DNA of 64,000 nucleotides from a virus. Position numbers and translations under genes: made by a program. Positions 28,527 to 41,595 of this stretch are shown in pieces. The number at the start of each line of letters is the position of its first letter. Within the stretch, counting starts at the first letter, position 1. Location of the stretch: IMG/VR virus record IMGVR_UViG_3300046539_000057, positions 3,499 through 67,498 of that record; one strand, written 5' to 3'. The notes under the pieces were generated by a model, which saw only the letters and a program-made list of their open reading frames with translations, did no database searches and was not told where the DNA came from.

Positions 28527-31500
28527 ATGAAGAACATCGCCCAACTGCGCGAAGAAATGCCCGACCTGCTCGGCGGCTTGAGCGATGCCGACGCGCTGGA
28601 CGTGCTGCACCAGGCCTACTACCCCGACCTGCCGATCGAGCAGGTGGCGCAGGCCGTGGGCTACAAGCCGGAGCCGGCCGCCGCGCCGGCCGCGCCGGCC
28701 GCGCCGCAGGGTGAGCGCAGCTGGGGCCAGGTGGCCGCCGACACCGGCCGCGGCCTGATGGCCGGCGCCGCCGGGCTGGTCGAGGGCGTGGGCACCGCCT
28801 ACGGCCTGGCCACCGGCGACATGGAGAACGGCGTCCGCACGCTCGGCAAGGACGCGGGCGAGTATTGGCAGGAGGGCATGTCGCCCCAGCTGAAGGCCCA
28901 CCAGCAGGCGCGCGCCGAGGCGATGAAGGGCGCCGACGGCATGCTCGAGAAGGGCTGGACCGGCCTCAAGGAGACCATCACCGACCCGACGCTGCTGCTG
29001 GACGGCATCGCGCAGAGCGCCGCGTCCTTCGTCCCCGGCATGGCCGCCGGTCGGGTCGCCGGCGCCGCCACCATGGCGCGCGGCATGGCCGCCGGGCCGA
29101 TGAGTGAGGCCGCGGCCGCAGCGGCCGCCAAGATGGCCGGCACCGTGGGCACCGGCGTCGCCGTGGGCACCGGCGCCGTGCAGCAAGGCGCCAGCGTGGC
29201 GAGCGACACCTACGACCGCTCCCTGCAGACGGCGGCCGAGGAACTGGCCGCGCACCCGGACTTTCAGGCCCGCGTGCAGGCCGGCGAGGACCCGACCGCG
29301 GTGTTCCGCGACATGGCCACGGGCGCCGCGCGCGCCTCGTTCGGCCCGGCCACCGCGATCTCGGCGGTGCTCAACGCCCTGCCCGGCGGCTCCGCGATCG
29401 AGAAGGCGCTGGTCGGCGGCGCGGCGCGCCAGGGCGCCGGCGGCCTGATGAAGAACGTCGGCATGGCCGGCGCCGGCGAATTCCTCTCCGAAGGCGGCGA
29501 GGAAGGCGGCGGCGCGTTCGCGGGCAACGTGGCGCGGCGCGCCTTCGTCGACCCGAGCGCCAGCCTGTCCGAGAACGTCGGCGAGAGCGCCGGCGTGGGC
29601 GCGGCGACCGGCCTGGCCATGGGCGGCCCGGCCGGCATCTTCCACGCCGGCCCGGCCGCGGAGCCGACCCCCGATCCGCTCGCCCCGCCCTCCCCGGCCA
29701 TCGTCCCGCCGGCCGTGCCGCCGGTCGCGCCGCCCGGTGCCGGCCCGCTGACCCGCGCGGCCGCCGCGGGCGCCGCCGCCGCCGCGACCGCCGCCGGTGC
29801 CGCAAACCCGGCAGCCGCTGCCGGGTTTGTCCCGCCGACCCCGGCGACCATGGCAAACCCTGCACCCGGTGCAGGGTTAGATCCGAACGATCCGTTCGCC
29901 GGATCGCCTCTCGTCGCACCCGGGGTGCCTGGCAGCCTGCAGACGCAGCCGATGGTTGCGCGCCCCGACTTGTCTACCGCAGCGCCGCCGGACGTCGATC
30001 TGACCCAGCCGGCCGGCAGCGCGTTCCAGCAGCGCGAGGCCGACCGGCCGGAGATCGTTGTCCAGCCGCAACAGCCTGGCGACATCGTGAACCGCCAGGG
30101 TGCGCCGTTCAAGACCATGGGCGCCGCGCAGACGGCGCTCGCCAGTGCAGGGGAGGGCGCCGAGATCGTTCCGGTCGCAGGCGGCCTCGTCATTCGACCG
30201 AAGGGGAACGCTGATGGTGTACCTGGGGGACAGCCTGGACCCGCTCGATCCGGCGATGCAGGAGGCGGTGCAGCAGCAGGTGGTGACGCTCGAGGAGGCG
30301 TGGCAGCTGCAGATGGAGTTCCTGTGGGGGGACCCGTACAGCCCGTGGTCGCCGCACCTGGTGGCGCCGGCCAAGAGGGTGGAGTTCCTGCAGATGGAGG
30401 CGTGGCCGACGGTGCAGTAGACGACCTGTACGCGCAGGCCGAGGCGCTGGTGCGTGGCCTGGGCCGCGGCGCGCAGATGGAGATGCAGCGCCATCTGCGC
30501 ATTGGCTACAACCGGGCCAAGGGCCTGCTGGAGCAGCTGGAGGCGCGCGGCGTCCTCGGGCCGCAGGGAGAGAACTTTGCGCGTCCCGTCATCGCACAAG
30601 GCCAGAGCGACTCGCCTGCCGCCAGCCCCGGAGCCCAAGCGGCGCCGGCGGGAGAGGGCGCTGCAGGAGCAGCAGGAGCCGTTGACGTTCCCGCTGCCGG
30701 AGCCGCCGATCTACAAGCCGCTGGGTTGACCGCGCCGGCCGGCGAGTACCGGCCCGGCCAGGCGATCGACCTCGACGGCCGCAAGTGGACGGTGAAAGCG
30801 GTCGCGCACACCGGCCGCGAGATCACGGTCGCCACGAACGACGGCGGCGTATTCCGCGAGGAGCGCATCCAGGTCGAGCAGGCCGCACCCTCTACCGCCG
30901 CACCTTCCACCAAAGAGGTGGAGGGTGGAGGGTCGACGGTGCAGACCCCCGCGCCGGCACCGGAAGCCGCTCGGGTAGGGCCGTCCGAGGCCTCGCGCCG
31001 CGACCAGGCGGGCAACGTGCTCGAGGTCGGCGACACGGTGGAGGGATACGGCGCCAGCGGCAGGGTCATCGCCGACTGGAACCAGAACCTGGAGGGCCGG
31101 TGGTTCGCCGTCGATGCCGATGGCAGCACGATCGGCAGCCCCTCGCGCCTGATGAAGCAGGCGCCCGCCGCCGCGCCGGCCCCGGCCGAGCCGCCGAACA
31201 GCGAGGTGGTGGAGCACGTCACCGAAAAGGGCAAGACGATCCGCGGCGTGTGGCGCGACGACTTCACCGAGCGCCAGGCGAAGGAGATCGACCCCTACAG
31301 CTTCAACGCCAATGGCAAGGGCTGGTTCATCCGCGAGAAGCACTTGGGCCAGCTGCCGCCCAAGGGCGAGCCGCCGAAGGACGTGCGCACCCAGCGCCAG
31401 GAGCGCATCGACGCGGCGCGCGACAAGTCGCCGGCCGTGCAGTTCGGCCGCGCCATGCGCGCCGAGGGCCTGGAGATGGAGGGCACCGACGCCTTCGACT

Positions 31501-34500
31501 GGTCGGCCGACCTGGGCGACGGGCACGAGGTGCACGCCAAGCTGGACCGCGACGGCAACGTGCGCGTGCGCCGCATCGTCAACGGCGAGGAGGTGGCGAC
31601 GACCGTCACCGTGCGCGAGAAGGCCGGCGAGGTCGTGGCGCAGATGCGCGCCGACTCGGCGATGGAGAAGAAGCAGCCGCCCGCCGCCGCGCCCGCGCCG
31701 CGCCCGGTCACCGTCACCCCCGCAGGCCCCGGCGCGTTCGCCATCACCATCGATCCGTCCGCCGGCCGGCCGCCGCCGGCAACCGAGGAGGCAGCCCCCA
31801 AGGATGGGAAGGCAGCCCCCCAGGTTTCCGGCAACACGGTGTTCACCGAGGACGCCGCCGAGAAGGCGCGCGCGGTGCTGCGCGCCAAGCTGCGCGGGCA
31901 GCTGAACAGCGGCATCGACCCCGAGATCCTGCAGGCCGGCATGACGCTGGCCGGCTACCACATCGAGAAGGGCGCGCGCACCTTCGCCGCCTACGCGAAG
32001 GCGATGATCGCGGACCTGGGGGAGGGCATCCGCCCGTACCTCAAGTCCTTCTACCTGGCGGTCAAGTTCGACCCGCGCGCAGCCGCGTTCGAGGGCATGG
32101 ACGGCGCCGCCGCGGTCGAGTCGGCCGAGATCGAGGCCAGCGTAAGCCCGGAGGCCGCGCCAGCTGACACGAAGCCGGCTGCCGAAGCTGCAGCTGACAC
32201 GAAGTCCGCCGCGGATCTCACCGAGCGCCTGCTGACCGAGATCGAAGCCGGCCGCATGCCCAAGGACAACCCGGCGCTGAAGAAGCTGGTGGAGGCCTTC
32301 GACGGCAAGCCCGCCGACCCGGCGCGCATGAAGCAGGCCCAGGAGGCGCTGGAGGTGGCGATCGTGCGCCGCTCGCGCGGCATCGTGCACGAGGCGCCGA
32401 TCCGCGGCGTGCGCGGCACCTTCGACCGCCTGCTCGAGCTCTACAACTCGCAGCCCAACCTGAACGTGCGCACCAGCACGTCGATCGCCAACCAGGCCTA
32501 CAGCACGCCGGCGCCGCTCGCCTACCTGGCCTCGCGCCTGTCGGCCATCACCAAGCAGAGCACGGTCTACGAGCCGACCGCCGGCAACGGCATGCTGCTG
32601 ATCGCGGCCGACCCGAAGAAGGCGCTCGCCAACGAGCTCAACGACGAGCGCCGCGCCGCGCTCAAGGCGCAGGGCTTCAACGCCACCGGCCAGGACGCCA
32701 CCACCTACGCGCCGGGCGAGGGCGGCATCGACGCCGTCATCGCCAACCCGCCGTTCGGCCCGCACGCCGAGGTGCGCTTCGACGGCTACAAGGTCACGGC
32801 GATCGACCACGTCATCGCCGCGCGCGCGCTGGCCGCCATGGCCGACAACGGCCACGCCACGCTCATCCTGGGCGCCAACATGAAGGCGGGCGGGCAGAGC
32901 GAGGCCGACCGCATCTTCATGAACTGGCTGTACGGGCACTACAACGTGACCGGCCATTTCGAGGTCGAGGGCGACCTGTACGCACGCCAGGGCGCCGGCT
33001 GGCCGGTGCGCGTCATCAACATCGCGGGCCGGAAGCGGTCCAGCACCATCGCGCCGAAGGTCGGCACAATTCAGCGAGCCAGCACCTGGGAGCAGGTCTA
33101 TGAGCACTACCAGCAAGCACTGGCTGCCCGACGGCAGCCTGACGCCAGCGCAGCAGCTGGCCCTGTCGGTCCCGGAGCGGACGCACGCACCGATGGACCA
33201 GGAGCAGTACCTGCTGCGCCTGGAGAGCAAGCTGCAGCGGCTGGCCCAGCAGCTGACGCCCAAGGAGCTCCGCGAGGCGCTCGAGGTGTCCCTGGAGAGC
33301 CTGCCGGAGATCTACAGCCTGGCGCAGGAGGGACTGACGCCGCCGGAACTGGCGCAGGCGCTGGTGCAGAGCGACAGCCTGCGGCTGCTCCTCAACCTGA
33401 TCGACTGGAGCCGGCCGGGAACGACAAGGCCGAGCCCGGAGCAAAGCCTGGACGAGTTCCTGGAGCAGCTGGCGCTCTGACGCCGCCGGAGCAGGCCAAC
33501 ACCTTCCAAGCGAAGTACGTCCCGCGCAGCAGCCGCAAGGACGAGGACGTCCTGATCCCGGTGAACATGGCGCAGCCGTTGCAGGACGCGCTCTCGCAGC
33601 TGGAGGACCAGGTCGGCGACATCGACGAGTTCGCCGCCAAGGAGCTCGGCTACGACAGCATCGAGCAGATGCACGAGGCCCTCATGGGCCTGCAGGTCGA
33701 CGCGGTGGCCGCGGCGATCTACCAGATCAAGGAGCGTGGCAAGGGCATCATCATCGCCGACCAGACCGGCATCGGTAAGGGGCGCTCGGCCGCGGCCATG
33801 ATCCGCTGGGCCATGCGCAACGGCCGCGTGCCGATCTTCATGACGGCCACCGACAACCTGTTCACCTCCATGTACGACGACCTGCAGGACATCGGTTCGA
33901 CCGATGCCCAGCCGTTCATCGTCAACCGCGAGGCGTTCGTGTCCGGCGAGGGCAGCGAGAAGCTGTTCACCAACCGCAGCAGCGTGCTGCACTCGCGCAC
34001 GATCGACCAGATCGCGGCCACCGGCACGCTTCCGGCCGGCACGAACGTGGCGTTCCTCACCTACACGCAGATCAACGTCGACAACCGCCAGCGCAAGGCC
34101 ATCATGGCGCTCGCGGACAAGGCGGTGTTCATCCTCGACGAGAGCCACAAGGCGGGCGGCGACTCGGCCACGGGCAAGTTCATGCAGGGCGCGATCGGCC
34201 TGGCGCAGGGCACGGTCTACCTGTCGGCCACCTTCGCCAAGCGGCCCGACAACATGCCGCTGTACTCCAAGACCGACCTGGGCGACTCGATGGACTCCGA
34301 GGCGCTGCAGGCGGCGATGGCCGCCGGCGGCCTGCCGCTGCAGACGGTGGTGTCGGCGAACCTGGTGGCCGCCGGCCAGCTGTTCCGCCGCGAGCGCTCG
34401 TTCGAGGGCATCTCCATCGTGACGGAGACCGACACGGCGCACCGCGAGGAGCACCGCGACATCGCCGACCGCGCCACCGAGGCGCTGCGCGCGATCGTCG

Positions 34501-37500
34501 CGGCCGACCACGCCTTCCACACGACGTTCTTCGACGAACTGCGCGAGCAGTACGAGGAGGCCGGCGAGGGCAACCGGGCGCTCGACGGCGCCGGCAACCA
34601 GGCCAGCGACTCGGTCAACCGCACCGAGTTCTCCAGCGTGGTGCACAACTTCGTGCGCCAGATCCTGCTGGGCATGACCGCGCAGACCGCCGCCGACGAC
34701 GCGCTGGCGGCGGTGAAGCGCGGCGAGCGCGCGCTGATCGCCTTCGAGAACACGATGGGCTCGTTCCTGAACGAGTACGCGCAGCAGAACGGCCTCAAGC
34801 CGGGCGACAAGCTGGGCATCTACGACTACCGCAACGTGCTCTCGCGCGCGCTGGAGCGCAGCCGCTACTACAAGCTCAAGAAGGCCAACGGCGACGATGA
34901 GCGGGTGCAGGTGCCGCTGTCGCAGCTGGACCCGGAGACCTACGACGCCTACCGGCGCGCGCAGGAGGTGATCGACGCGCTGCGCATCAAGCTGCCGGCA
35001 TCGCCCATCGACTGGATGCGCCACGTCATCACCTCGGGCGGGCACACCGTCAAGGAGATCACCGGGCGCACCATGCGCGTGGACTACTCCGACCCGAAGG
35101 CACCGACGCTGGAGAACATGGCCAAGGAGGAGATGGACAACCGCGTGCTCACCGCGCGCGAGTTCAACGGCTCCGACGGCGTCGCGCCCTCGCTCGACGT
35201 GATCCTGCTGAACGTCGCCGGCTCCACCGGCATCAGCTTGCACGCGGCGGCCAAGTTCGCCAACCAGTCCAAGCGCCACATGATCGTGGCGCAGGCCGCG
35301 GGCGACATCAACACCTTCATGCAGATGCTGGGGCGCTCCAACCGCACCGGCCAGGTCGTGAAGCCCGGCTACAAGCTGCTGCAGCCCGACCTGCCGGCGG
35401 TGCGCCGCCCGGCGGCCGTGCTGTCGAGCAAGATGAAGAAGCTCAACGCCAACACGTCGAGCAACACCGAGAGCGCCACGTCCGTCGAAGCGGTGGACAT
35501 GCTCAACAAGTACGGCGACCAGGTCGTGAGCCAGTACCTGGCCGACAACCCGCTGCTGGCCGCGGAACTGCGCCTGGAGCCCAGCGAGGACGCCGAGAAC
35601 GCCACCGAGGGCATCGCCATGAAGGCCACCGGCCGCATGGCGCTCATGCCCGTGTCGGTGCAGGACGAGTTCAACGAGGAGGTCGAGGCGCAGTACCGCG
35701 CGCTCATCGAGTACCTCGACAAGACGAACCAGAACGACCTGGTGCCGCGCACCTACGACTACGACGCCAAGGAGCTCAAGACCCAAGTCCTGTACGAGGG
35801 CGAGAAGCCCGAGAGCCCGTTCGGTGCGGACGCCATCTACGGCGAGTACAGCATCAAGGCGCAGGGCAAGTCCATGACGCCGGCCGAGATCCAGGCCGAG
35901 ATGGAACGCAACCTGGAAGGCAAGCGCGGCGAGGCCCACGTCAAGGCGATCGTCGACCGGCTCGAGGCTGCCTTCCTGCCCTGGGCCGGCAGCATCCCCG
36001 AGGCGCTGCGCGAGACCGCGGAGATGCAGCGGCGCACGGCGCGCGAGTTCCTGCAGCAGCACCCGATCGGCACGCTGGTCCGCGTGCAGATCAACGAGGA
36101 CGCCTACAACGCCGCGGTGCTCAACATCCGCAGCACGCACAAGACGGCGGGCAACCCGTTCGCCATGAGCAAGATCCAGGTGACGGTCGCCGTCAACGGC
36201 GCGCTGCGCCAGGTGACGGTGCCGGCCACGCAGTTCCGCAAGATCGAGGTGGCCAACCTGCAGCAGACCTACCGGCTGGCGCAGCTGTTCGAGGCGGCGC
36301 GCGAGAACGACCGCGAGACCGTGAAGATCGTCACCGGCAACCTGCTCGCCGCCTATGGCGAGATCAGGACCGCGGGCCGCATCATCAGCTTCACCAAGGG
36401 CGACGGCACGACCGAGCAGGGCATCCTGCTGCCCAAGAAGTTCACGCTGGCCGAGCACACCGACCAGACCTACCGGCTGCGCTCGGCCGAGCAGGGGCTG
36501 CGCTTCCTGGTCGAGAGCACCAACGAGCTCACGGCCAAGTGGGGCCTCAACTCGCGCGATCGCACGGTGAAGGTGCTGCAGGACCAGCGCCTCGGCATCG
36601 ACCACAGCCAGCCGGGCATCCAGATCATCGTGCCCAAGTCCAAGGCCAAGGGCGGCAAGTTCTTCCTCGACAAGGAACTGCTGCAGCACACCGGCGACTT
36701 CGTTTCGCACGGCGACAAGATGATCGTCCATGTGACGGGCCGCGCGAAATCCATCGCCGCGATCGAGCGCCTGATGAGCAAGACGGCCCTGTACGTGCCG
36801 CAGTCGATGGCCGAGGAGGCCAAGACCAAGCTGCCGCCCACCGAAAGCCTCTCCATTTCCGAGGCCACCCAGGCAACGGGTGACAAGCAAGTGTCCCCCC
36901 TTCAAAATAGGGGGAATGCCCAGCCCAGCGCTACCGACACCGAACGAGTCGCCAAGCTCGCCGAACGACTCGCCCCGGCCTATCCCGGGCGTGTGTTTCA
37001 CGCTGCTGCTGCGCCAACTGGACGAGGCGGACGGCCTGGTTCCACCGCTGGCGCCGCTACCTGGGTCGCCAAGCGACTGTTCGGCCACGACGCCGTGTGG
37101 GTCCGCTTCGACGGCGAGCCCCTGTTCAACGGTGCATTCAGCGCCGTCATCCCCGACGCGATCTTCCTGAACGCGGACGCCGACAAGCCGCACCTGGCGG
37201 TCCTCGGCCACGAACTGCTGCACCGGCTGCGCCGCGAGCGCCCGGACGTCTACGCGCAGCTGCAGAACCGGCTGGCGCGCGTGCTCAAGGACGTCGACCA
37301 GTTCCGCAACGCGCTGGCGGCGAAGTACAAGGAGCAGGGCTACGAGCTCCCCGGCAACTGGATGGAGGAGCTCCACGCGGACATCGTGGGCGACTTCTTC
37401 GTCGACCCGGCCTTCTGGCGCGAGATCGGCAAGACGCAGCCCGCGCTGTTCCGCCGCGTGGCCGCGGCCATCATGAAGTTCCTCGACGACGTCAAGGCCT

Positions 37501-40500
37501 CGCTCACCGGCCGGCCGTTCGGCACCGAGGCCTTCCTGTCGGACATCGACGCCGCGCGCGCCGCGGTGGCCGAGGCGATGGGCGAATTCAGCAAGGGCGA
37601 GGGCGCCCCGGTGCACCAAGCCGAGGGAGCCGAGTCGCTGTCGCTCGCCAGCGCGCTGCGCGCCGGCAACGTGCGAGACCTGGGCATCGGCATGGGCTAC
37701 AAGATCAACGACCTGGTCGAGCAGCACGGCACGCTCTCCACCTGGCAGAAGACGGTGGGCACGCCGTTCAACCTGGCCAAGCGCTCGGCGGTGTTCCGCC
37801 GCGTGTTCGACGCGGTGCAGTCCTTCCTGGGCGACGTGAGCCACTACGCCAACCAGGCCGCCGACCTGGCGCCGACGATCCTGCCCAAGCTCGAGCACCT
37901 GCGCGACCTGCTGAAGACGCCGCTCACCGGCGCCGACAAGAAGGCGCTCGCCGCCCCGATCTTCGAGGGCACGCTGTCCTGGGTGCGCGGCGTCGACGGC
38001 AAGCCGGTGCGCGTCGAGACCCTGGAGGAGGCCGCCGAGCAGATGACGGTGCACGACAAGGCGCAGGAGCTCATGCACCAGCAGCGCGTCGACCCGAGCC
38101 TCATCCGCATGTGGCAGGGCCGCGACATCGCCACCTACGAGACCATCATCAACAACCGCTACGCGCACGAGTTCCTGCGCGGCGGCATCGTGTGGACCGA
38201 CGCCGAGCTCCGCAGCCAGCACAAGCTGGACGCGCGGCAGATCAAGCTGTACCGCGAGTTCCGCGCGGCCACCGACAAGAGCCTCGACAACCTGGCGGTC
38301 TCCGAGGCGCTGCGCCTCATGGGCAAGGCCGCGGCTGACGTGCGCGAGCAGGCGCTGGACGCCAAGACGCTCGATGCGGCCTTCGCGGTGCTGGAGGCCA
38401 AGCAGCTTGAGCTCGACCAGGCGCTCGAGGCCGGCACGCAGGGCGAGCGCGACGCGATCAACGTGAGCGCTGCCAAGCTCATCGAGATCAAGCAGCGCGC
38501 GCTCGACCTGAAGGAGCGCGGCTACGCGCCGCTGTCGCGTTTCGGCCAGTTCTCGGTCGACGTCACGCGCGGCGACGAGCGCATCCACTTCGGCCTGTAC
38601 GAGAGCCAGGCCGAGGCGAACCGGGCCGCGCGCCAGTGGCGCGGCAAGGAGCCGGGCGCCACGGTCAGCCAGGGCACCATGGCGCAGGAGACCTACAAGC
38701 AGTTCCAGGGCGTGAGCCCGGAAACGCTGGCGGTGTTCGCCGACGTCCTGGGCCTGGACAAGGACGAGGCCTTCCAGGGCTACCTGCAGAAGGCGGTCTC
38801 CGGCCGCTCGGCCTTGAAGCGGCTCATCCACCGCAAGGGCATCGCCGGCTACAGCCCGGACGTGGGCCGCGTGCTGGCCAGCTTCGTGACGTCCAACGCG
38901 CGGCGCACCTCGAGCAACCTGCACACCGGCGAGATCGAGGCCTCCGCGGCCGCGATCCCCAAGCAGTCCGGCCAGATGGCGGACTACGCGCGCCAGATGG
39001 TCGACTACGCGCTCACCCCCCAGGAGGAGGCGCAGAGCCTGCGCTCGGTGCTGTTCGCGCAGTACATCGGCGGCTCGATCGCCTCGGCGCTGGTCAACAT
39101 GACGCAGCCGATCACGATGACGGTGCCCTACCTGTCGCAGCACATCGGCGGCAGCAAGGCGGCCGCGCACGTGGCGCGCGCCTGGAAGGACCTGGCCAGC
39201 GGCAAGACCGGCGACGCGGCGCTCGACAAGGCGCTCGAGCAGGCCGAGGAGGACGGCATCGTCGCGCCGCAGGAGATCCACCACCTGCAAGCGCAGGCGG
39301 CCGGCCGCGGCGTGCTGCACGGCGGCGACGGCACCAAGCTGGGCGAATGGCGCGCGACCGGCAGCCTCGCCTTCGCGCGCGCCAACCTGGTGTGGGTCCG
39401 CCTGTTCGGTTGGGCAGAGCAGGTCAACCGCCGCACGACCTTCATCGCGGCCTACCGCATCGCCAAAGAGAAGCCCAGCCTGGGCGACCCGGTGGCGTTC
39501 GCGCGCGACGCCATCAACGAGACGCAGGGCATCTACAACCGCGGCAACCGGGCCCGCTTCGCGCGCGGCGCGGTGGGCGCGACGCTGATGACGTTCAAGC
39601 AGTATTCCGTGGCCTACGTCGAGCTCCTGACCCGCCTGGCCAAGTCCGGCAAGGACGGGCGGCGTGCGGCGCTGCTGATGCTGGCGCTGCTGGTGCTCAC
39701 CGCCGGCATGGACGACCTGCCGTTCATCGAGGACCTGGAGGACGTGGTCGACGGCATCGCGCAGCGCCTGGGCTGGAACTTCTCCTTGAAGGAGCGGCGC
39801 AACGCGGCGGTCGAGGCCGTGGTCGGCAAGGGCATGGCGCGCTTCCTGGCCAAGGGCATCTCCGGGGTGTCGGGCATGCCGCTGGACGTGTCGGGCCGCA
39901 TGGGCATGGGCGACCTGATCCCCGGCACCGGCCTGTTCATGAAGAAGGCCGACCACACCCGTGACGTCATCGGCATCGCAGGCCCCGCCGGCGACCTGGC
40001 CACGCGCGTGGCAACCGCGGCCGGCCAGGCGCTGGGCGGCGAGTTCGGCGCCGCGGCCAAGTCGGTCGCGCCGCGCGCGGCGGCCAACATGGCGCAGTCG
40101 GCGAGCATGCTGCAGCACGGCGAGTACCGCGACCAGGCCGGGCGCAAGGTGGTGGAGACCACCCCGGTCGAGGCGGCGCTGAAGTTCGCCGGCTTCCAGC
40201 CCAACGTGGTCGCGCGCGACAGCGAGATCAACTACTCGGCGACGCGCGAGTCGGCGGCGATCCGGCTGGAAAAGAGCGAGATCGCGGCGGCCTGGGCCCA
40301 GGGCGTCGTCGACAAGGACCCGGATGCGGTGCGCGCGGCGCGCCAGCGGCTCAAGCGGTGGAACGCGCGCAACCCCGAGGCGCCGATCTCCATCAAGATC
40401 CCGCAGATCCGCCAGCGCATCAAGCACCTGCGCGAGAGCCGGGCCGACCGGACAATCGCCAACGCGCCCAAGGAGATCCGGGCGCGCGTCAAGAATGACC

Positions 40501-40517
40501 TGGAGGTCGAGCGATGA
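28527..40517 (+). CDS. Giant DarB-like polyvalent virion protein (3996 aa): FtsK-gamma-like, N6-MTase, strawberry-notch-type SF2 helicase, zincin-like and PLxRFG domains
   Basis: EPTAGNG and NPPF (~32570-32760); ADQTGIGKGR (~33760); DESH (~34140); HELLH (~37210); APLSRFG (~38530). Confidence 0.92.
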   Translation: MKNIAQLREEMPDLLGGLSDADALDVLHQAYYPDLPIEQVAQAVGYKPEPAAAPAAPAAPQGERSWGQVAADTGRGLMAGAAGLVEGVGTAYGLATGDMENGVRTLGKDAGEYWQEGMSPQLKAHQQARAEAMKGADGMLEKGWTGLKETITDPTLLLDGIAQSAASFVPGMAAGRVAGAATMARGMAAGPMSEAAAAAAAKMAGTVGTGVAVGTGAVQQGASVASDTYDRSLQTAAEELAAHPDFQARVQAGEDPTAVFRDMATGAARASFGPATAISAVLNALPGGSAIEKALVGGAARQGAGGLMKNVGMAGAGEFLSEGGEEGGGAFAGNVARRAFVDPSASLSENVGESAGVGAATGLAMGGPAGIFHAGPAAEPTPDPLAPPSPAIVPPAVPPVAPPGAGPLTRAAAAGAAAAATAAGAANPAAAAGFVPPTPATMANPAPGAGLDPNDPFAGSPLVAPGVPGSLQTQPMVARPDLSTAAPPDVDLTQPAGSAFQQREADRPEIVVQPQQPGDIVNRQGAPFKTMGAAQTALASAGEGAEIVPVAGGLVIRPKGNADGVPGGQPGPARSGDAGGGAAAGGDARGGVAAADGVPVGGPVQPVVAAPGGAGQEGGVPADGGVADGAVDDLYAQAEALVRGLGRGAQMEMQRHLRIGYNRAKGLLEQLEARGVLGPQGENFARPVIAQGQSDSPAASPGAQAAPAGEGAAGAAGAVDVPAAGAADLQAAGLTAPAGEYRPGQAIDLDGRKWTVKAVAHTGREITVATNDGGVFREERIQVEQAAPSTAAPSTKEVEGGGSTVQTPAPAPEAARVGPSEASRRDQAGNVLEVGDTVEGYGASGRVIADWNQNLEGRWFAVDADGSTIGSPSRLMKQAPAAAPAPAEPPNSEVVEHVTEKGKTIRGVWRDDFTERQAKEIDPYSFNANGKGWFIREKHLGQLPPKGEPPKDVRTQRQERIDAARDKSPAVQFGRAMRAEGLEMEGTDAFDWSADLGDGHEVHAKLDRDGNVRVRRIVNGEEVATTVTVREKAGEVVAQMRADSAMEKKQPPAAAPAPRPVTVTPAGPGAFAITIDPSAGRPPPATEEAAPKDGKAAPQVSGNTVFTEDAAEKARAVLRAKLRGQLNSGIDPEILQAGMTLAGYHIEKGARTFAAYAKAMIADLGEGIRPYLKSFYLAVKFDPRAAAFEGMDGAAAVESAEIEASVSPEAAPADTKPAAEAAADTKSAADLTERLLTEIEAGRMPKDNPALKKLVEAFDGKPADPARMKQAQEALEVAIVRRSRGIVHEAPIRGVRGTFDRLLELYNSQPNLNVRTSTSIANQAYSTPAPLAYLASRLSAITKQSTVYEPTAGNGMLLIAADPKKALANELNDERRAALKAQGFNATGQDATTYAPGEGGIDAVIANPPFGPHAEVRFDGYKVTAIDHVIAARALAAMADNGHATLILGANMKAGGQSEADRIFMNWLYGHYNVTGHFEVEGDLYARQGAGWPVRVINIAGRKRSSTIAPKVGTIQRASTWEQVYEHYQQALAARRQPDASAAAGPVGPGADARTDGPGAVPAAPGEQAAAAGPAADAQGAPRGARGVPGEPAGDLQPGAGGTDAAGTGAGAGAERQPAAAPQPDRLEPAGNDKAEPGAKPGRVPGAAGALTPPEQANTFQAKYVPRSSRKDEDVLIPVNMAQPLQDALSQLEDQVGDIDEFAAKELGYDSIEQMHEALMGLQVDAVAAAIYQIKERGKGIIIADQTGIGKGRSAAAMIRWAMRNGRVPIFMTATDNLFTSMYDDLQDIGSTDAQPFIVNREAFVSGEGSEKLFTNRSSVLHSRTIDQIAATGTLPAGTNVAFLTYTQINVDNRQRKAIMALADKAVFILDESHKAGGDSATGKFMQGAIGLAQGTVYLSATFAKRPDNMPLYSKTDLGDSMDSEALQAAMAAGGLPLQTVVSANLVAAGQLFRRERSFEGISIVTETDTAHREEHRDIADRATEALRAIVAADHAFHTTFFDELREQYEEAGEGNRALDGAGNQASDSVNRTEFSSVVHNFVRQILLGMTAQTAADDALAAVKRGERALIAFENTMGSFLNEYAQQNGLKPGDKLGIYDYRNVLSRALERSRYYKLKKANGDDERVQVPLSQLDPETYDAYRRAQEVIDALRIKLPASPIDWMRHVITSGGHTVKEITGRTMRVDYSDPKAPTLENMAKEEMDNRVLTAREFNGSDGVAPSLDVILLNVAGSTGISLHAAAKFANQSKRHMIVAQAAGDINTFMQMLGRSNRTGQVVKPGYKLLQPDLPAVRRPAAVLSSKMKKLNANTSSNTESATSVEAVDMLNKYGDQVVSQYLADNPLLAAELRLEPSEDAENATEGIAMKATGRMALMPVSVQDEFNEEVEAQYRALIEYLDKTNQNDLVPRTYDYDAKELKTQVLYEGEKPESPFGADAIYGEYSIKAQGKSMTPAEIQAEMERNLEGKRGEAHVKAIVDRLEAAFLPWAGSIPEALRETAEMQRRTAREFLQQHPIGTLVRVQINEDAYNAAVLNIRSTHKTAGNPFAMSKIQVTVAVNGALRQVTVPATQFRKIEVANLQQTYRLAQLFEAARENDRETVKIVTGNLLAAYGEIRTAGRIISFTKGDGTTEQGILLPKKFTLAEHTDQTYRLRSAEQGLRFLVESTNELTAKWGLNSRDRTVKVLQDQRLGIDHSQPGIQIIVPKSKAKGGKFFLDKELLQHTGDFVSHGDKMIVHVTGRAKSIAAIERLMSKTALYVPQSMAEEAKTKLPPTESLSISEATQATGDKQVSPLQNRGNAQPSATDTERVAKLAERLAPAYPGRVFHAAAAPTGRGGRPGSTAGAATWVAKRLFGHDAVWVRFDGEPLFNGAFSAVIPDAIFLNADADKPHLAVLGHELLHRLRRERPDVYAQLQNRLARVLKDVDQFRNALAAKYKEQGYELPGNWMEELHADIVGDFFVDPAFWREIGKTQPALFRRVAAAIMKFLDDVKASLTGRPFGTEAFLSDIDAARAAVAEAMGEFSKGEGAPVHQAEGAESLSLASALRAGNVRDLGIGMGYKINDLVEQHGTLSTWQKTVGTPFNLAKRSAVFRRVFDAVQSFLGDVSHYANQAADLAPTILPKLEHLRDLLKTPLTGADKKALAAPIFEGTLSWVRGVDGKPVRVETLEEAAEQMTVHDKAQELMHQQRVDPSLIRMWQGRDIATYETIINNRYAHEFLRGGIVWTDAELRSQHKLDARQIKLYREFRAATDKSLDNLAVSEALRLMGKAAADVREQALDAKTLDAAFAVLEAKQLELDQALEAGTQGERDAINVSAAKLIEIKQRALDLKERGYAPLSRFGQFSVDVTRGDERIHFGLYESQAEANRAARQWRGKEPGATVSQGTMAQETYKQFQGVSPETLAVFADVLGLDKDEAFQGYLQKAVSGRSALKRLIHRKGIAGYSPDVGRVLASFVTSNARRTSSNLHTGEIEASAAAIPKQSGQMADYARQMVDYALTPQEEAQSLRSVLFAQYIGGSIASALVNMTQPITMTVPYLSQHIGGSKAAAHVARAWKDLASGKTGDAALDKALEQAEEDGIVAPQEIHHLQAQAAGRGVLHGGDGTKLGEWRATGSLAFARANLVWVRLFGWAEQVNRRTTFIAAYRIAKEKPSLGDPVAFARDAINETQGIYNRGNRARFARGAVGATLMTFKQYSVAYVELLTRLAKSGKDGRRAALLMLALLVLTAGMDDLPFIEDLEDVVDGIAQRLGWNFSLKERRNAAVEAVVGKGMARFLAKGISGVSGMPLDVSGRMGMGDLIPGTGLFMKKADHTRDVIGIAGPAGDLATRVATAAGQALGGEFGAAAKSVAPRAAANMAQSASMLQHGEYRDQAGRKVVETTPVEAALKFAGFQPNVVARDSEINYSATRESAAIRLEKSEIAAAWAQGVVDKDPDAVRAARQRLKRWNARNPEAPISIKIPQIRQRIKHLRESRADRTIANAPKEIRARVKNDLEVER
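29804..29879. repeat. 25-bp palindrome copies 2 (29804-29828) and 3 (29855-29879, variant)
   Basis: Copy 2 is identical to 7372-7396; copy 3 (AAACCCTGCACCCGGTGCAGGGTTA) carries symmetric substitutions. Confidence 0.85.
30214..30420 (+). CDS. Nested 68-aa gene in the +1 frame of the giant ORF
   Basis: AAGGGG RBS; nearly all codons end in G/C in this frame while host-frame third positions become A/T-rich. Confidence 0.75.
   Translation: MVYLGDSLDPLDPAMQEAVQQQVVTLEEAWQLQMEFLWGDPYSPWSPHLVAPAKRVEFLQMEAWPTVQ
30577..30729 (+). CDS. Possible nested 50-aa gene in the +1 frame (TTG start)
   Basis: GGGAG RBS before TTG; GC3 bias shifts to this frame. Confidence 0.4.
   Translation: MRVPSSHKARATRLPPAPEPKRRRRERALQEQQEPLTFPLPEPPIYKPLG
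33100..33480 (+). CDS. Nested 126-aa helical gene in the +1 frame of the giant ORF
   Basis: GGGAG upstream; strong GC3 bias; Leu/Glu/Gln-rich product; host frame is a low-complexity linker. Confidence 0.8.
   Translation: MSTTSKHWLPDGSLTPAQQLALSVPERTHAPMDQEQYLLRLESKLQRLAQQLTPKELREALEVSLESLPEIYSLAQEGLTPPELAQALVQSDSLRLLLNLIDWSRPGTTRPSPEQSLDEFLEQLAL
36916..37170 (+). CDS. Possible nested +1-frame ORF behind an internal promoter-like sequence
   Basis: GTGACA-17-CAAAAT just upstream; GC3 shift covers only the 5' part. Confidence 0.3.
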   Translation: MPSPALPTPNESPSSPNDSPRPIPGVCFTLLLRQLDEADGLVPPLAPLPGSPSDCSATTPCGSASTASPCSTVHSAPSSPTRSS

Positions 40518-40639
40518 AAGACCTGGGCGCCGCCTGCGCGGCGTTCGGCATCGCCTTCGCCGTGCACGCCTTCCTCGGCTGGTGGGGGCTGGCCGGCGTC
40601 GCGCTGCTGCTGTGGTGGCTGTACCGACAAGGGCCCTGA
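40514..40639 (+). CDS. 41-aa membrane peptide
   Basis: GGAGG RBS, ATGA coupling, almost wholly hydrophobic. Confidence 0.6.
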   Translation: MKDLGAACAAFGIAFAVHAFLGWWGLAGVALLLWWLYRQGP

Positions 40640-40655
40640 TCCGCACGGATTCGCG

Positions 40656-40683
40656 TTGACTCTCGGCGATGTGCGGGTGCAAT
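40656..40683 (+). promoter_or_regulatory. Candidate sigma70 promoter for the lysis cassette
   Basis: TTGACT-16-TGCAAT; holin ATG follows within 6 nt and has no SD (possibly leaderless). Confidence 0.4.
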
Positions 40684-40688
40684 GCACC

Positions 40689-41087
40689 ATGCGCCCGTAC
40701 ATCGCCCGCTTGGCCCTGTGCCTGTCGTTCCTGGCACCGTTCCATGCCCAGGCCGCTGACGTCATCACGGGCGACAAGTCGCCCCTGAGCTACCCGCTCA
40801 AGCAGTACGGGTTCGTGCTCGGGATGGCCCTCCTTGGAGGCTTCGTGAACTGGTACAGCCTTGTCCGCAAGGGCGAGCTCTCTGGAACGAGCATCACCGC
40901 ACTGGTCGGCGAGCTCACCACCTCGGCGCTGGCCGGGCTGCTCGCCTTCTTCGTGTGCGAGTGGCTGGGGATCTCCCCGCTGCTCACCGGCGCAGTGGTC
41001 GGCATCACAGGCCACATGGGCACGCGGGCCCTGGCGCTCGGCGAAGAAGCCTTGAAGCGCAAGGTCAACCGCGAAACCGACAAGTGA
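40689..41087 (+). CDS. Holin (LydA-like) with N-terminal signal-peptide-like extension
   Basis: LLGG.V.W, GEL.TS..AGL..F..C, G..GHMGTRA motifs; basic C-tail; upstream of the endolysin. Confidence 0.85.
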   Translation: MRPYIARLALCLSFLAPFHAQAADVITGDKSPLSYPLKQYGFVLGMALLGGFVNWYSLVRKGELSGTSITALVGELTTSALAGLLAFFVCEWLGISPLLTGAVVGITGHMGTRALALGEEALKRKVNRETDK

Positions 41088-41091
41088 TGCC

Positions 41092-41595
41092 ATGGACTTC
41101 GACCAGGCTTTCGAGCGGCTGATCGGCCACGAAGGCGGGTTCACCCAGGACACCCGCGACCGCGGGAACTGGACCGGCGGCGAGGTGGGCCGCGGTGTCT
41201 GCAAGGGCACCAAGTACGGCATCAGCGCAGCGGCGTATCCCGGCGAGGACATCGAGCACCTGACGCTCGCCCACGCCAAGCTGCTCTACGCGCGCGACTA
41301 CTGGGGCCCGGCCGGCTGCGACGCGGCGCCCGTGGGCATCAAGTTCGACCTGTTCGACATGGCGGTCAACTCCGGCGTGCGCGCGGCCATCAAGGCGCTG
41401 CAGCGCGCGGTCGGCGAGGACGTCGACGGCATCCTGGGCGTGCGCACGATCATGGCCGTGCAGAGCATGCCGGCGCTGCGCCTGCTGGCGCGCTTCAACG
41501 GCGCGCGGCTCGAGTACATGGCCTCGGCCGTCACCTGGCCGGCGCACGGGCGCGGCTGGGTGCGCCGCGTGGCGCTGAACCTGCTCGCCGCATGA
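41092..41595 (+). CDS. Endolysin, glycoside hydrolase family 108
   Basis: HEGG, D.D.G..T, TKYGIS, Y..DYW, FD.AVNSG, DG.LG..T, GW..R motifs. Confidence 0.95.
   Translation: MDFDQAFERLIGHEGGFTQDTRDRGNWTGGEVGRGVCKGTKYGISAAAYPGEDIEHLTLAHAKLLYARDYWGPAGCDAAPVGIKFDLFDMAVNSGVRAAIKALQRAVGEDVDGILGVRTIMAVQSMPALRLLARFNGARLEYMASAVTWPAHGRGWVRRVALNLLAA

What the first reader, a model, noticed from the sequence alone, without database searches (positions are those of the whole stretch)
33100..33480. 126-aa gene hidden in the +1 frame between the MTase and helicase domains of the giant protein
Seen: across exactly this interval the 3996-aa frame becomes a Gly/Ala/Pro linker with A/T-ending codons (gga, gca, gct, cct), unlike the rest of the gene. 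The +1 frame has a GGGAG RBS, ATG, strong GC3 bias and a Leu/Glu/Gln-rich helical product; a -10-like CACAAT lies ~35 nt upstream. Inference: a real overprinted gene. It may be a cognate inhibitor or chaperone that keeps the neighbouring domains inactive in the producing cell but is not injected, and it would be inherited inseparably with them. Standard gene callers would discard it.
Basis: partly seen in the sequence, partly recalled or inferred. Interest (0 to 1): 0.8.

Follow-up and report, generated by a model that had tools for sequence, protein, structure and literature searches.

The report
Hidden gene inside giant gene's linker
A real, unannotated gene for a small acidic folded protein is written one base out of step inside the floppy linker joining the methylase and helicase parts of a giant phage protein, and most related phages keep the same two-frame layout, though its job is still unknown.

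Summary
Across 33100-33480 the third-codon-position G+C of the 3996-aa frame falls from about 1.0 to 0.32-0.5, while the +1 frame shows normal coding statistics. In this 70% G+C window, open frames alone prove nothing. The case rests on relatives. Of 80 related viral loci, 73 carry a +1-frame ORF of at least 94 aa over the same linker, down to 37% G+C. Five have split genes without a linker, and two are cut by the contig end. In four independent groups, substitutions switch from sparing frame 0 in the flanks to sparing the +1 frame inside the ORF (Fisher p 1.7e-8 to 5.6e-31). Frame 0 also stays open against expectation. The 126-aa product folds confidently (pLDDT 87, pTM 0.79). It has no Pfam, PHROG, PDB or BFVD relative. 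It belongs to a family of 200 cluster representatives. I read it as a separately initiated gene, with the linker probably the younger reading. Function is unknown; my best guess is an accessory partner of the giant protein, as TraH is to TraI. This scan has reported the same layout on other genomes before. I found no paper describing it.

The parts
28527..40517 (+). Giant polyvalent (DarB-like) gene, 3996 aa, no cysteine. Carries FtsK-gamma, MTase motifs, Sbno-type helicase and an HELLH metallopeptidase motif.
   Evidence: ORF list; Pfam FtsK_gamma 631-690, AAA_34/ResIII 1719-1969, Helicase_C_4 2171-2340; motifs and Cys count
32571..33116 (+). C-terminal part of the N6-MTase-type domain in frame 0, from EPTAGNG and NPPFG to the last conserved helix STWEQVYEHY.
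   Evidence: Motif positions; conserved in the 25-sequence alignment A3
33088..33092 (+). GGGAG Shine-Dalgarno-like motif, 7 nt before the nested ATG. It is formed by the conserved Trp-Glu codons of the giant frame.
   Evidence: Sequence; similar motifs before the ATG in L011/L015 (AAGGAG), L012 (GGGGAGG) and L014 (GGGAGG)
33100..33480 (+). Nested gene in the +1 frame, 126 aa, acidic (pI 4.65), predicted as a folded mainly helical protein.
33117..33494 (+). Frame-0 reading of the same DNA: an Ala/Gly/Pro-rich low-complexity linker (about aa 1531-1656) with 56% A/T-ending codons.
33495..35546 (+). Start of the Sbno-type helicase module in frame 0. A conserved N-terminal segment (FQAKYVPRSS...) is followed by AAA_34/ResIII and Helicase_C_4.

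Best explanation
33100-33480 is a genuine, separately translated gene embedded in the +1 frame of the giant polyvalent-protein gene. One stretch of DNA gives two products. Read in frame 0, it is a disordered Ala/Gly/Pro spacer that only has to stay open and flexible between the methyltransferase and helicase modules. Read in +1 from its own ATG behind a GGGAG, it is a 126-aa acidic protein with a compact, mainly helical fold. Selection acts mainly on the +1 reading. Frame 0 is kept free of stop codons. The pair is inherited vertically with the giant gene across a wide range of phages. Shown here: conservation, frame-specific selection, foldability, a conserved ATG, and openness of both frames. 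Inferred: initiation at the internal ATG on the giant gene's late mRNA (about 80% against a frameshift fusion). Also inferred: the small gene is the older reading, and the linker arose when the MTase gene read through it into the helicase gene. Function is inferred by analogy only. Most likely (about 35-40%) it is a trans-acting accessory partner of the giant protein, made in fixed genetic linkage with it. It would help the giant protein assemble, be packaged or be held in check, as acidic TraH, encoded out of frame inside RP4 traI, stabilises the TraI-TraJ relaxosome. The next most likely role (about 25%) is an independent acidic counter-defence effector.
For: (1) GC3 inversion confined to the ORF. 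(2) Four called proteins of 124-127 aa share 53-80% identity, with the same start and end. Metagenome locus L002 has a 35%-identical +1 ORF while the giant frame stays open across the whole contig. (3) 73 of 80 viral loci found through the flanking helicase segment carry a +1 ORF of at least 94 aa at the same place, at G+C from 0.37 to 0.65. In low-GC loci it is the longest +1 run, 130-164 aa against 50-90 for the next longest. (4) Nucleotide diversity by frame-0 codon position in group A (34 sequences): flanks .035/.035/.171 and .043/.019/.215; nested zone .181/.086/.058. Group B (18 sequences) shows the same rotation. In a 6.9-kb sliding scan, the ORF is the only zone where position 1 is clearly the most variable. 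One 5' window (start 136) also fails the position-3 test, but with three near-equal values (.126/.119/.115), as in an unconstrained stretch. (5) I counted variants that are synonymous in frame 0 but non-synonymous in +1, against the reverse class. Flanks 233:39, 413:210, 150:49, 172:32; nested zone 34:93, 82:108, 31:57, 24:62. Fisher p = 5.6e-31, 1.7e-8, 1.7e-10, 2.9e-20. (6) Given the nested protein, frame 0 would stay open by chance with P<=0.001 in 12 of 16 representatives and P<=0.015 in 14 of 16, so both frames are maintained. (7) AlphaFold2 on a 30-sequence alignment gives pLDDT 87.1 and pTM 0.79. A distant subfamily (L035 type) gives 69.8/0.71 with the same order of helices. (8) A profile search finds 200 cluster representatives at E<=1e-3 and 80 at E<=1e-10. 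(9) All 63 unique nested runs have an ATG, and 61 of 63 have it within 6 codons of the upstream +1-frame stop. SD-like motifs occur in several subfamilies. (10) Nested-protein identity tracks flank identity (rho 0.42 and 0.38, p=0.0005). (11) Analogy: TraH is described as an acidic protein encoded in a different frame within traI that stabilises the TraI-TraJ interaction (PMC7314908, passage read).
Against: There is no direct evidence of translation; no RNA run was listed and there is no proteomics. In this window alone both open frames are expected by chance, so the claim rests on relatives. Given the linker protein, the +1 frame stays open by chance with P 0.001-0.58 in relatives, because linkers poor in Phe/Leu/Ile/Met/Val rarely create +1 stops. 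ORF length is therefore weak evidence on its own. Pairwise percent identity in the two frames is similar within the window's clade. Only alignment scores favour the nested frame, in 13 of 15 pairs. The alignments used for folding consist of the nested ORFs themselves, and no fold of the frame-0 linker was run as a control. Two database proteins (P0010, P0102) join the MTase C-terminus in frame to the nested reading. This could mean natural fusion forms rather than indel errors. The function has no computational support.
Confidence: 0.85

Rival explanations
1. Programmed +1 ribosomal frameshift. Some ribosomes leave frame 0 at the end of the MTase domain. They then make a shorter isoform (N-terminal modules plus MTase) ending in the 126-aa domain. 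On this reading the domain is a C-terminal domain, not a separate protein.
For: Homologues exist in which the domain is the in-frame C-terminus of longer proteins. P0066, P0070 and P0060 also share the helical domain found at giant aa 1121-1183. P0010 joins the MTase C-terminus directly to the nested Met. In this window the +1 frame is open for 50 codons upstream of the ATG (open frame 176 aa).
Against: An ATG is present in 63 of 63 unique sequences. A +1-frame stop lies within 6 codons upstream of it in 61 of 63, leaving almost no room for a conserved shift site. SD-like motifs sit at initiation distance, 7 nt in the window. I saw no stop-codon or rare-codon shift motif in the sequence (my reading). 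119 of the 152 stored family members are at most 165 aa, and 147 of the 152 begin with Met.
Confidence: 0.08
2. Not a gene. The open +1 frame and its G+C pattern are by-products of a Gly/Ala/Pro linker in a 70% G+C genome.
For: Gly, Ala and Pro codons start with G or C, which inflates the +1 'GC3'. The +1 frame stays open by chance with P=0.95 given this linker. Long spurious ORFs abound here, for example a 2655-aa antisense ORF.
Against: This does not explain frame-0 GC3 of 0.32-0.5 in a gene that otherwise has GC3 near 1.0. It does not explain the same ORF in loci of 37-46% G+C. It does not explain the rotated substitution pattern in 4 of 4 groups, the confident fold or the 200-member family.
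Confidence: 0.03
3. A mobile in-frame insertion carrying a hidden out-of-frame ORF. The model is the ShiLan element, which hides an HNH endonuclease in a phage methylase gene.
For: The formal layout is the same: an insert read through without stops in the host frame, with its own ORF in another frame (PMC11855218, abstract read). Relatives with separate MTase and helicase genes lack both the linker and the ORF.
Against: No nuclease or any other family hit was found. All 73 loci with the fused architecture that could be assessed carry it. Its divergence tracks that of the flanks. Its position is fixed at the domain boundary.
Confidence: 0.03
4. A dead fusion scar or a compensated frameshift/assembly error. 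On this reading, a former gene or a former in-frame segment is now read only as linker.
For: Codon statistics of a former frame can persist for a while after a frame change.
Against: Purifying selection on the +1 frame continues within four separate present-day groups. Start and stop are conserved. The same layout in 73 loci excludes an assembly error in this record.
Confidence: 0.01

Closest known systems
RP4 (IncP-alpha) traH inside traI
   Same: [quoted passage not shown] It acts as an auxiliary factor of that enzyme's complex (PMC7314908, passage read). The nested protein here is also small and acidic (pI 4.65; relatives 4.1-4.8).
   Different: The host gene here is a virion-type polyvalent MTase-helicase, not a relaxase. 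Sequence relationship to TraH was not tested. Binding to the host protein is not shown. Here the overlapped part is a disordered interdomain linker.
Rz1 embedded in Rz (spanin genes of lambda-like phages)
   Same: A same-strand gene wholly embedded in the +1 frame of another phage gene, with both products functional (my own knowledge, not re-examined here).
   Different: Rz1 is a short lipoprotein that binds Rz in lysis. Here the host is a 3996-aa enzyme fusion, and the nested product is a soluble acidic folded protein of unknown role.
ShiLan out-of-frame HNH endonuclease in an actinophage DNA methylase gene (PMC11855218)
   Same: A segment read through in frame as a tolerated loop of a phage methylase, while an alternative frame encodes a complete protein (abstract read).
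   Different: ShiLan is an actively homing, sporadically distributed endonuclease element. The gene here has no nuclease signature, is present in all assessable fused relatives and co-diverges with its host gene.
Hepatitis B virus polymerase spacer overlapping preS/S
   Same: A flexible spacer between enzyme domains is the alternative reading of a gene under stronger constraint (my own knowledge; the lead came from note e1-2771386).
   Different: That case is an animal virus with a tiny genome. Here a 67-kb dsDNA phage has no obvious need for compression.
Accessory proteins of the phage P1 Dar system (Ulx, Hdf, DdrA, DdrB)
   Same: Small proteins are needed for ordered packaging of the giant antirestriction protein DarB (PMC12810830, passages read). 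The JC1 paper states that no homologues of them had been identified in the Bcep22-like Lessieviruses, which carry DarB-like giants (PMC9144972, passages read). The nested protein could fill such a role.
   Different: No sequence or fold relationship was tested or seen. The P1 genes are separate, not nested. This is a functional analogy only.

Membership tests
Embedded same-strand out-of-frame gene pair (Rz/Rz1, traI/traH type architecture) | The inner ORF lies wholly inside the outer ORF, on the same strand, in a different frame | tested here: met
   33100..33480 lies inside 28527..40517, in the +1 frame
Embedded same-strand out-of-frame gene pair (Rz/Rz1, traI/traH type architecture) | Both frames are kept open across diverged relatives beyond chance | tested here: met
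   73 of 80 loci carry the ORF. Frame 0 is open with P<=0.001 in 12 of 16 representatives. The +1 frame is open with P 0.001-0.58, and 0.95 in the window itself.
Embedded same-strand out-of-frame gene pair (Rz/Rz1, traI/traH type architecture) | Purifying selection acts on the inner frame | tested here: met
   Rotated codon-position diversity. The synonymous/non-synonymous contrast is reversed in 4 of 4 groups, p 1.7e-8 to 5.6e-31.
Embedded same-strand out-of-frame gene pair (Rz/Rz1, traI/traH type architecture) | The inner gene has its own translation start signals | tested here: met
   ATG in 63 of 63 unique sequences. GGGAG lies 7 nt upstream here, and SD-like motifs occur in four other subfamilies. 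This shows presence of signals only, not their use.
Embedded same-strand out-of-frame gene pair (Rz/Rz1, traI/traH type architecture) | Both products are detected experimentally | not testable with these tools
   Needs ribosome profiling or mass spectrometry
TnpV (Pfam PF14198), which earlier notes of this scan reported as nested in other polyvalent genes | Match to the family HMM above the cut-off | tested here: not met
   No TnpV hit at E<=0.1 for 11 nested proteins. No six-frame match at E<=1 in the whole record. The only trace is a sub-threshold hit (E 0.075, 13.5 bits against a cut-off of 27) in the N-terminus of the longer homologue P0066, outside the shared domain.
ShiLan-type homing insertion with a hidden endonuclease | The hidden frame encodes a homing endonuclease | tested here: not met
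   No nuclease family in Pfam, PHROGs, NCBIfam or PADLOC
ShiLan-type homing insertion with a hidden endonuclease | Sporadic presence or absence among close relatives | tested here: not met
   Present in all 73 assessable loci with the fused architecture. Co-diverges with the flanks.
Programmed +1 frameshift product | A conserved shift site upstream, with no need for a start codon | tested here: not met
   A +1-frame stop lies within 6 codons of a conserved ATG in 61 of 63 unique sequences. I saw no shift motif. Not excluded experimentally.
Polyvalent / DarB-like giant protein (the host gene) | Several enzymatic modules (N6-MTase, SF2 helicase and others) in one very long polypeptide of a phage or conjugative element | tested here: met
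   Pfam helicase and FtsK-gamma hits. MTase and HELLH motifs. The concept is from PMC5512222 (abstract and term search read). Virion association was not tested here.

The most novel reading that the evidence does not exclude
The interdomain linker of a whole family of giant ejected phage proteins was created by reading through a pre-existing small gene in another frame. That small gene survives as an obligate trans-acting subunit, with a fold that has no detectable relative. It loads, holds in check or activates the giant anti-restriction protein, a TraH- or Ulx-like role. If so, 'disordered linkers' of polyvalent proteins would be a systematic hiding place for functional genes. A second GC3-inverted +1 ORF at 30214-30420 in the same gene hints at this.
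Probability: 0.3. Interest if true: 0.8.

Novelty: new member of a known kind. Interest (0 to 1): 0.6.

Why it matters
Long, deeply conserved same-strand overlapping genes are rare in dsDNA phages and are missed by annotation. This one adds an uncharacterised protein family of 200 cluster representatives. The family has a confident fold with no detectable relative. It is tied to the giant polyvalent proteins that phages are thought to send in with their DNA to beat host defences. It is a clean natural case in which one frame needs only to be open and flexible while the other carries the information, and it suggests how gene fusions can arise over an intervening gene. In practice, proteomics databases and phage annotations of these genes are incomplete. 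Engineering or codon-optimising the 'linker' would silently destroy a second gene.

Tried and rejected
I therefore could not examine the contigs of the closest homologues P0002-P0005 or the contexts of the longer homologues.

Locus searches:
- The nested alignment A1 found nothing in viral contigs.
- It found nothing in genome contigs.
- It found one locus, L002, in metagenome contigs.
- P0038 found nothing in genome contigs, and P0056 found nothing in viral contigs.

tblastn searches:
- Nested peptides from the window, L035 and L016 gave no match against INPHARED phages.
- The window peptide, P0128 and P0038 gave no match against PLSDB plasmids.

Family and structure searches gave nothing above threshold:
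- Pfam, PHROGs, NCBIfam and PADLOC.
- Foldseek against PDB and BFVD: no match at E<=1e-3.
- VIA-align wide: best Z 3.2, with pyrin/death-domain-like helical bundles among ties. I treat this as a common arrangement, not a relationship.
- PDB sequence profile: only Fis at E 0.013. I rejected it as marginal and not echoed by either fold search.
- ESM Atlas: no usable hit.

Other steps without a result:
- Complex prediction of the nested protein with the upstream 436-aa helical-domain-plus-MTase region returned no answer. It is not used as evidence either way.
- No RNA holder was listed for the window stretch.
- The five split-architecture virus records gave no homologue of the nested protein. The tool warns that an empty answer shows little, and three of the five records are under 75% complete.
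- The second candidate nested ORF (30214-30420) found only itself in the protein collection and nothing in five related records.

Literature. Three full-text searches found no description of a gene nested in an MTase-helicase polyvalent or DarB-like gene:
- polyvalent protein / overlapping gene / phage;
- DarB / overlapping / nested gene / methyltransferase / helicase / phage;
- strawberry notch / methyltransferase / phage / overlapping open reading frame.
PMC5512222 contains none of 'overlapping', 'frameshift' or 'linker'.

Considered and rejected: two programmed frameshifts that would place the segment in frame within the giant protein. The nested frame is bounded by stops, and frame 0 is under selection to stay open.
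Full report
**What is there.** The window is part of a 67.5-kb virus record with 70% G+C, rated complete by CheckV. A single ORF of 3996 codons runs from 28527 to 40517. Pfam finds an FtsK-gamma domain (aa 631-690) and a strawberry-notch-type helicase: AAA_34/ResIII at aa 1719-1969 and Helicase_C_4 at aa 2171-2340. The sequence shows EPTAGNG (aa 1349) and NPPFG (aa 1407), which I recognise from my own knowledge as N6-adenine methyltransferase motifs. It also shows an HELLH metallopeptidase motif and no cysteine at all. This is the 'polyvalent protein' type of Iyer et al. (PMC5512222; abstract and term search read).

The ORF in question, 33100-33480, lies in the +1 frame exactly between the last conserved helix of the MTase region (STWEQVYEHY) and the first conserved helicase segment (FQAKYVPRSS).

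**Check of the observation.** Third-position G+C of the giant frame is 0.96-1.00 on both sides and 0.32-0.52 inside the interval. The +1 frame reaches 0.86-0.98 there. Frame-0 third positions are 56% A/T in the linker against 6% elsewhere in the gene, and 81 of the 126 linker residues are Ala, Gly or Pro. GGGAG lies 7 nt before the ATG.

Two cautions apply.
- A Gly/Ala/Pro linker makes the +1 'GC3' high automatically, because those codons begin with G or C. The real anomaly is the loss of G/C-ending codons in frame 0.
- ORF openness means nothing in this window. I resampled synonymous codons from the giant gene's own usage. The +1 frame stays open in 95% of trials given the linker protein, and frame 0 stays open in 34% given the nested protein.

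The proposed -10 element (CACAAT, 33065-33070) is not part of any sigma-70-like promoter by the consensus scan.

**Relatives.** A word-indexed search found four called proteins of 124-127 aa at 53-80% identity, with the same N-terminus (M..SK.WLP) and the same C-terminus. A metagenome contig, L002, has a 35%-identical +1 ORF while the giant frame is open from end to end.

Using the flanking helicase segment as bait, I fetched 80 viral loci, the best 80 of 167. The results were:
- 73 carry a +1 ORF of at least 94 aa directly after the MTase C-terminal helix, spanning a low-complexity stretch of the giant frame.
- 5 (L008, L009, L010, L013, L033) have separate MTase and helicase genes or no linker, and no such ORF.
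- 2 (L036, L038) are cut by the contig end.

The carriers fall into about ten subfamilies, with G+C from 0.37 to 0.65. In the low-GC ones the linker ORF (130-164 aa) is the longest +1 run in the locus; the next longest are 50-90 aa.

A profile of 30 nested proteins, searched against 1.84 billion representatives, found 200 proteins at E<=1e-3 and 80 at E<=1e-10. Of the 152 stored family members (the 150 listed plus two), 119 are at most 165 aa.

The cultured Bacteroides phage BS-TP4 has a 5391-aa 'hypothetical protein', gp3. A 119-aa +1 ORF sits at the same junction, and it is not annotated.

**Selection.** This is the decisive evidence.
- Codon-position diversity. In a group of 34 related loci, nucleotide diversity by frame-0 codon position is .035/.035/.171 and .043/.019/.215 in the flanks but .181/.086/.058 inside the ORF. 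That is the order expected (third > first > second) if the +1 frame is the constrained one. A second group of 18 loci shows the same rotation.
- Sliding scan. Over 6.9 kb, the ORF is the only place where position 1 is clearly the most variable. A 5' stretch shows near-equal diversity at all three positions, and one window there also fails the position-3 test. That stretch is what an unconstrained region looks like.
- Variant classes. I classified single variants by their effect in each frame and compared two classes. One is synonymous in frame 0 but non-synonymous in +1; the other is the reverse. The ratio of the first to the second is 233:39, 413:210, 150:49 and 172:32 in the flanks of four independent groups. 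It is 34:93, 82:108, 31:57 and 24:62 inside the ORF (Fisher p 5.6e-31, 1.7e-8, 1.7e-10, 2.9e-20).
- Frame 0 kept open. Given the nested proteins, frame 0 would carry 4-14 stops on average. It stays open by chance with P<=0.001 in 12 of 16 representatives.

Both readings are therefore maintained. The +1 reading is maintained for its sequence; frame 0 is maintained at least for being open.

**Weaker points.**
- The +1 frame is not hard to keep open over a linker poor in hydrophobic residues (P 0.001-0.58 in relatives).
- Percent identity in the two frames is similar within the window's own clade. Only alignment scores favour the nested frame, in 13 of 15 pairs.

**The product.** AlphaFold2 with the 30-sequence alignment gives mean pLDDT 87.1 and pTM 0.79. 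The model has an N-terminal beta element, six helices and a short C-terminal helix. The distant L035-type protein gives 69.8/0.71 with the same order of helices. I did not fold the frame-0 linker as a control.

All 13 tested family members are acidic, with pI 4.1-4.8 and net charge -6 to -23. No family in Pfam, PHROGs, NCBIfam or PADLOC matches. No PDB or BFVD structure matches either: Foldseek gives nothing at E<=1e-3 and the best VIA Z is 3.2. It is not TnpV, which earlier notes of this scan found nested in other polyvalent genes.

**How it is made.** All 63 unique nested sequences have an ATG, and in 61 it lies within six codons of the preceding +1-frame stop. SD-like motifs precede the ATG in the window and in at least four other subfamilies. 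They are often built from the conserved Trp-Glu codons of the giant frame. This favours internal initiation on the giant gene's mRNA.

A +1 frameshift making an MTase-plus-domain isoform is the main rival. Some database proteins carry the domain as the in-frame C-terminus of longer proteins. Three of them share the helical domain found at giant aa 1121-1183. One has TPR/Sel1 repeats. One is a chromosomal Variovorax protein. Two short database proteins join the MTase end to the nested frame; I read these as probable indels, but they may be natural fusions.

**History (inference).** Four observations bear on this.
- Codon usage and selection follow the nested frame.
- The frame-0 reading is low-complexity.
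- Longer homologues exist whose conserved N-terminal extensions do not look like out-of-frame MTase sequence.
- Split relatives lack both the linker and the gene (weak evidence).

Nested-protein identity also tracks the identity of the flanking domains (rho 0.42 and 0.38, p=0.0005), which argues for vertical descent rather than a homing insert. The simplest story is that a small gene once lay between the MTase and helicase genes and was read through in another frame when they fused. The linker is then the overprint.

**Function.** Nothing computational points to a function. By analogy with acidic TraH, I favour a trans-acting accessory partner of the giant protein, at about 35-40%. TraH is encoded out of frame inside RP4 traI and stabilises the relaxosome (PMC7314908, passage read). 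A second analogy is the small accessory proteins that P1 needs to package DarB (PMC12810830 and PMC9144972, passages read). An independent acidic counter-defence effector, such as a DNA mimic, is next at about 25%.

**Known or new.** The architecture is a known kind: Rz1 in Rz, traH in traI, the ShiLan hidden HNH in a phage methylase (PMC11855218, abstract read), and the HBV polymerase spacer. This gene family and its link to polyvalent proteins did not turn up in three literature searches or in PMC5512222.

Earlier notes of this scan report the same layout on more than ten other genomes. I treated them as leads and re-derived the evidence here. The result adds an independent high-G+C instance and four-group selection statistics.

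Noticed in passing
window 30214-30420 (+1 frame of the giant gene; longer form from GTG 30100): A second +1-frame ORF (68 aa, or 106 aa from the GTG) shows the same GC3 inversion: frame 0 at 0.28-0.45, +1 at 0.97-1.0. It ends where the FtsK-gamma domain begins. No homologue was found: only itself in the protein collection, nothing in five related virus records, and no Pfam hit.
   Followed up: partly
window 30567-30690 and 36837-37017: Two further, weaker dips of frame-0 GC3 (0.55-0.72) with raised +1 values occur inside the giant gene.
   Followed up: no
window 28527-40517: The 3996-aa giant protein contains no cysteine. The giant frames of L011, L012, L014, L016 and L021 also lack Cys over their 6.9-kb loci.
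   Followed up: no
L083:6428-6787 (PQ571277.1, Bacteroides phage BS-TP4, inside gp3): A cultured phage carries an unannotated 119-aa +1 ORF at the MTase-helicase junction of its 5391-aa 'hypothetical protein'. It is a ready experimental system.
   Followed up: partly
proteins P0010 and P0102 (one search hits): Two short database proteins read the MTase C-terminus in frame 0 and then continue in the nested frame. These are either indel errors in short assemblies or natural MTase-domain fusions.
   Followed up: partly
proteins P0066, P0070, P0060; giant aa 1121-1183 (window about 31887-32075): A helical domain of the giant protein (...MIADLGEGIRPYLKSFY...) recurs just upstream of the nested-type domain in three longer database proteins. 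Similar helical segments follow the linker in the L004 and L016 subfamilies. This may be a Rosetta-stone hint to a partner.
   Followed up: partly
window 33312-41279, minus strand: A 2655-aa antisense ORF opposite the giant gene shows how long spurious ORFs run at 70% G+C.
   Followed up: no
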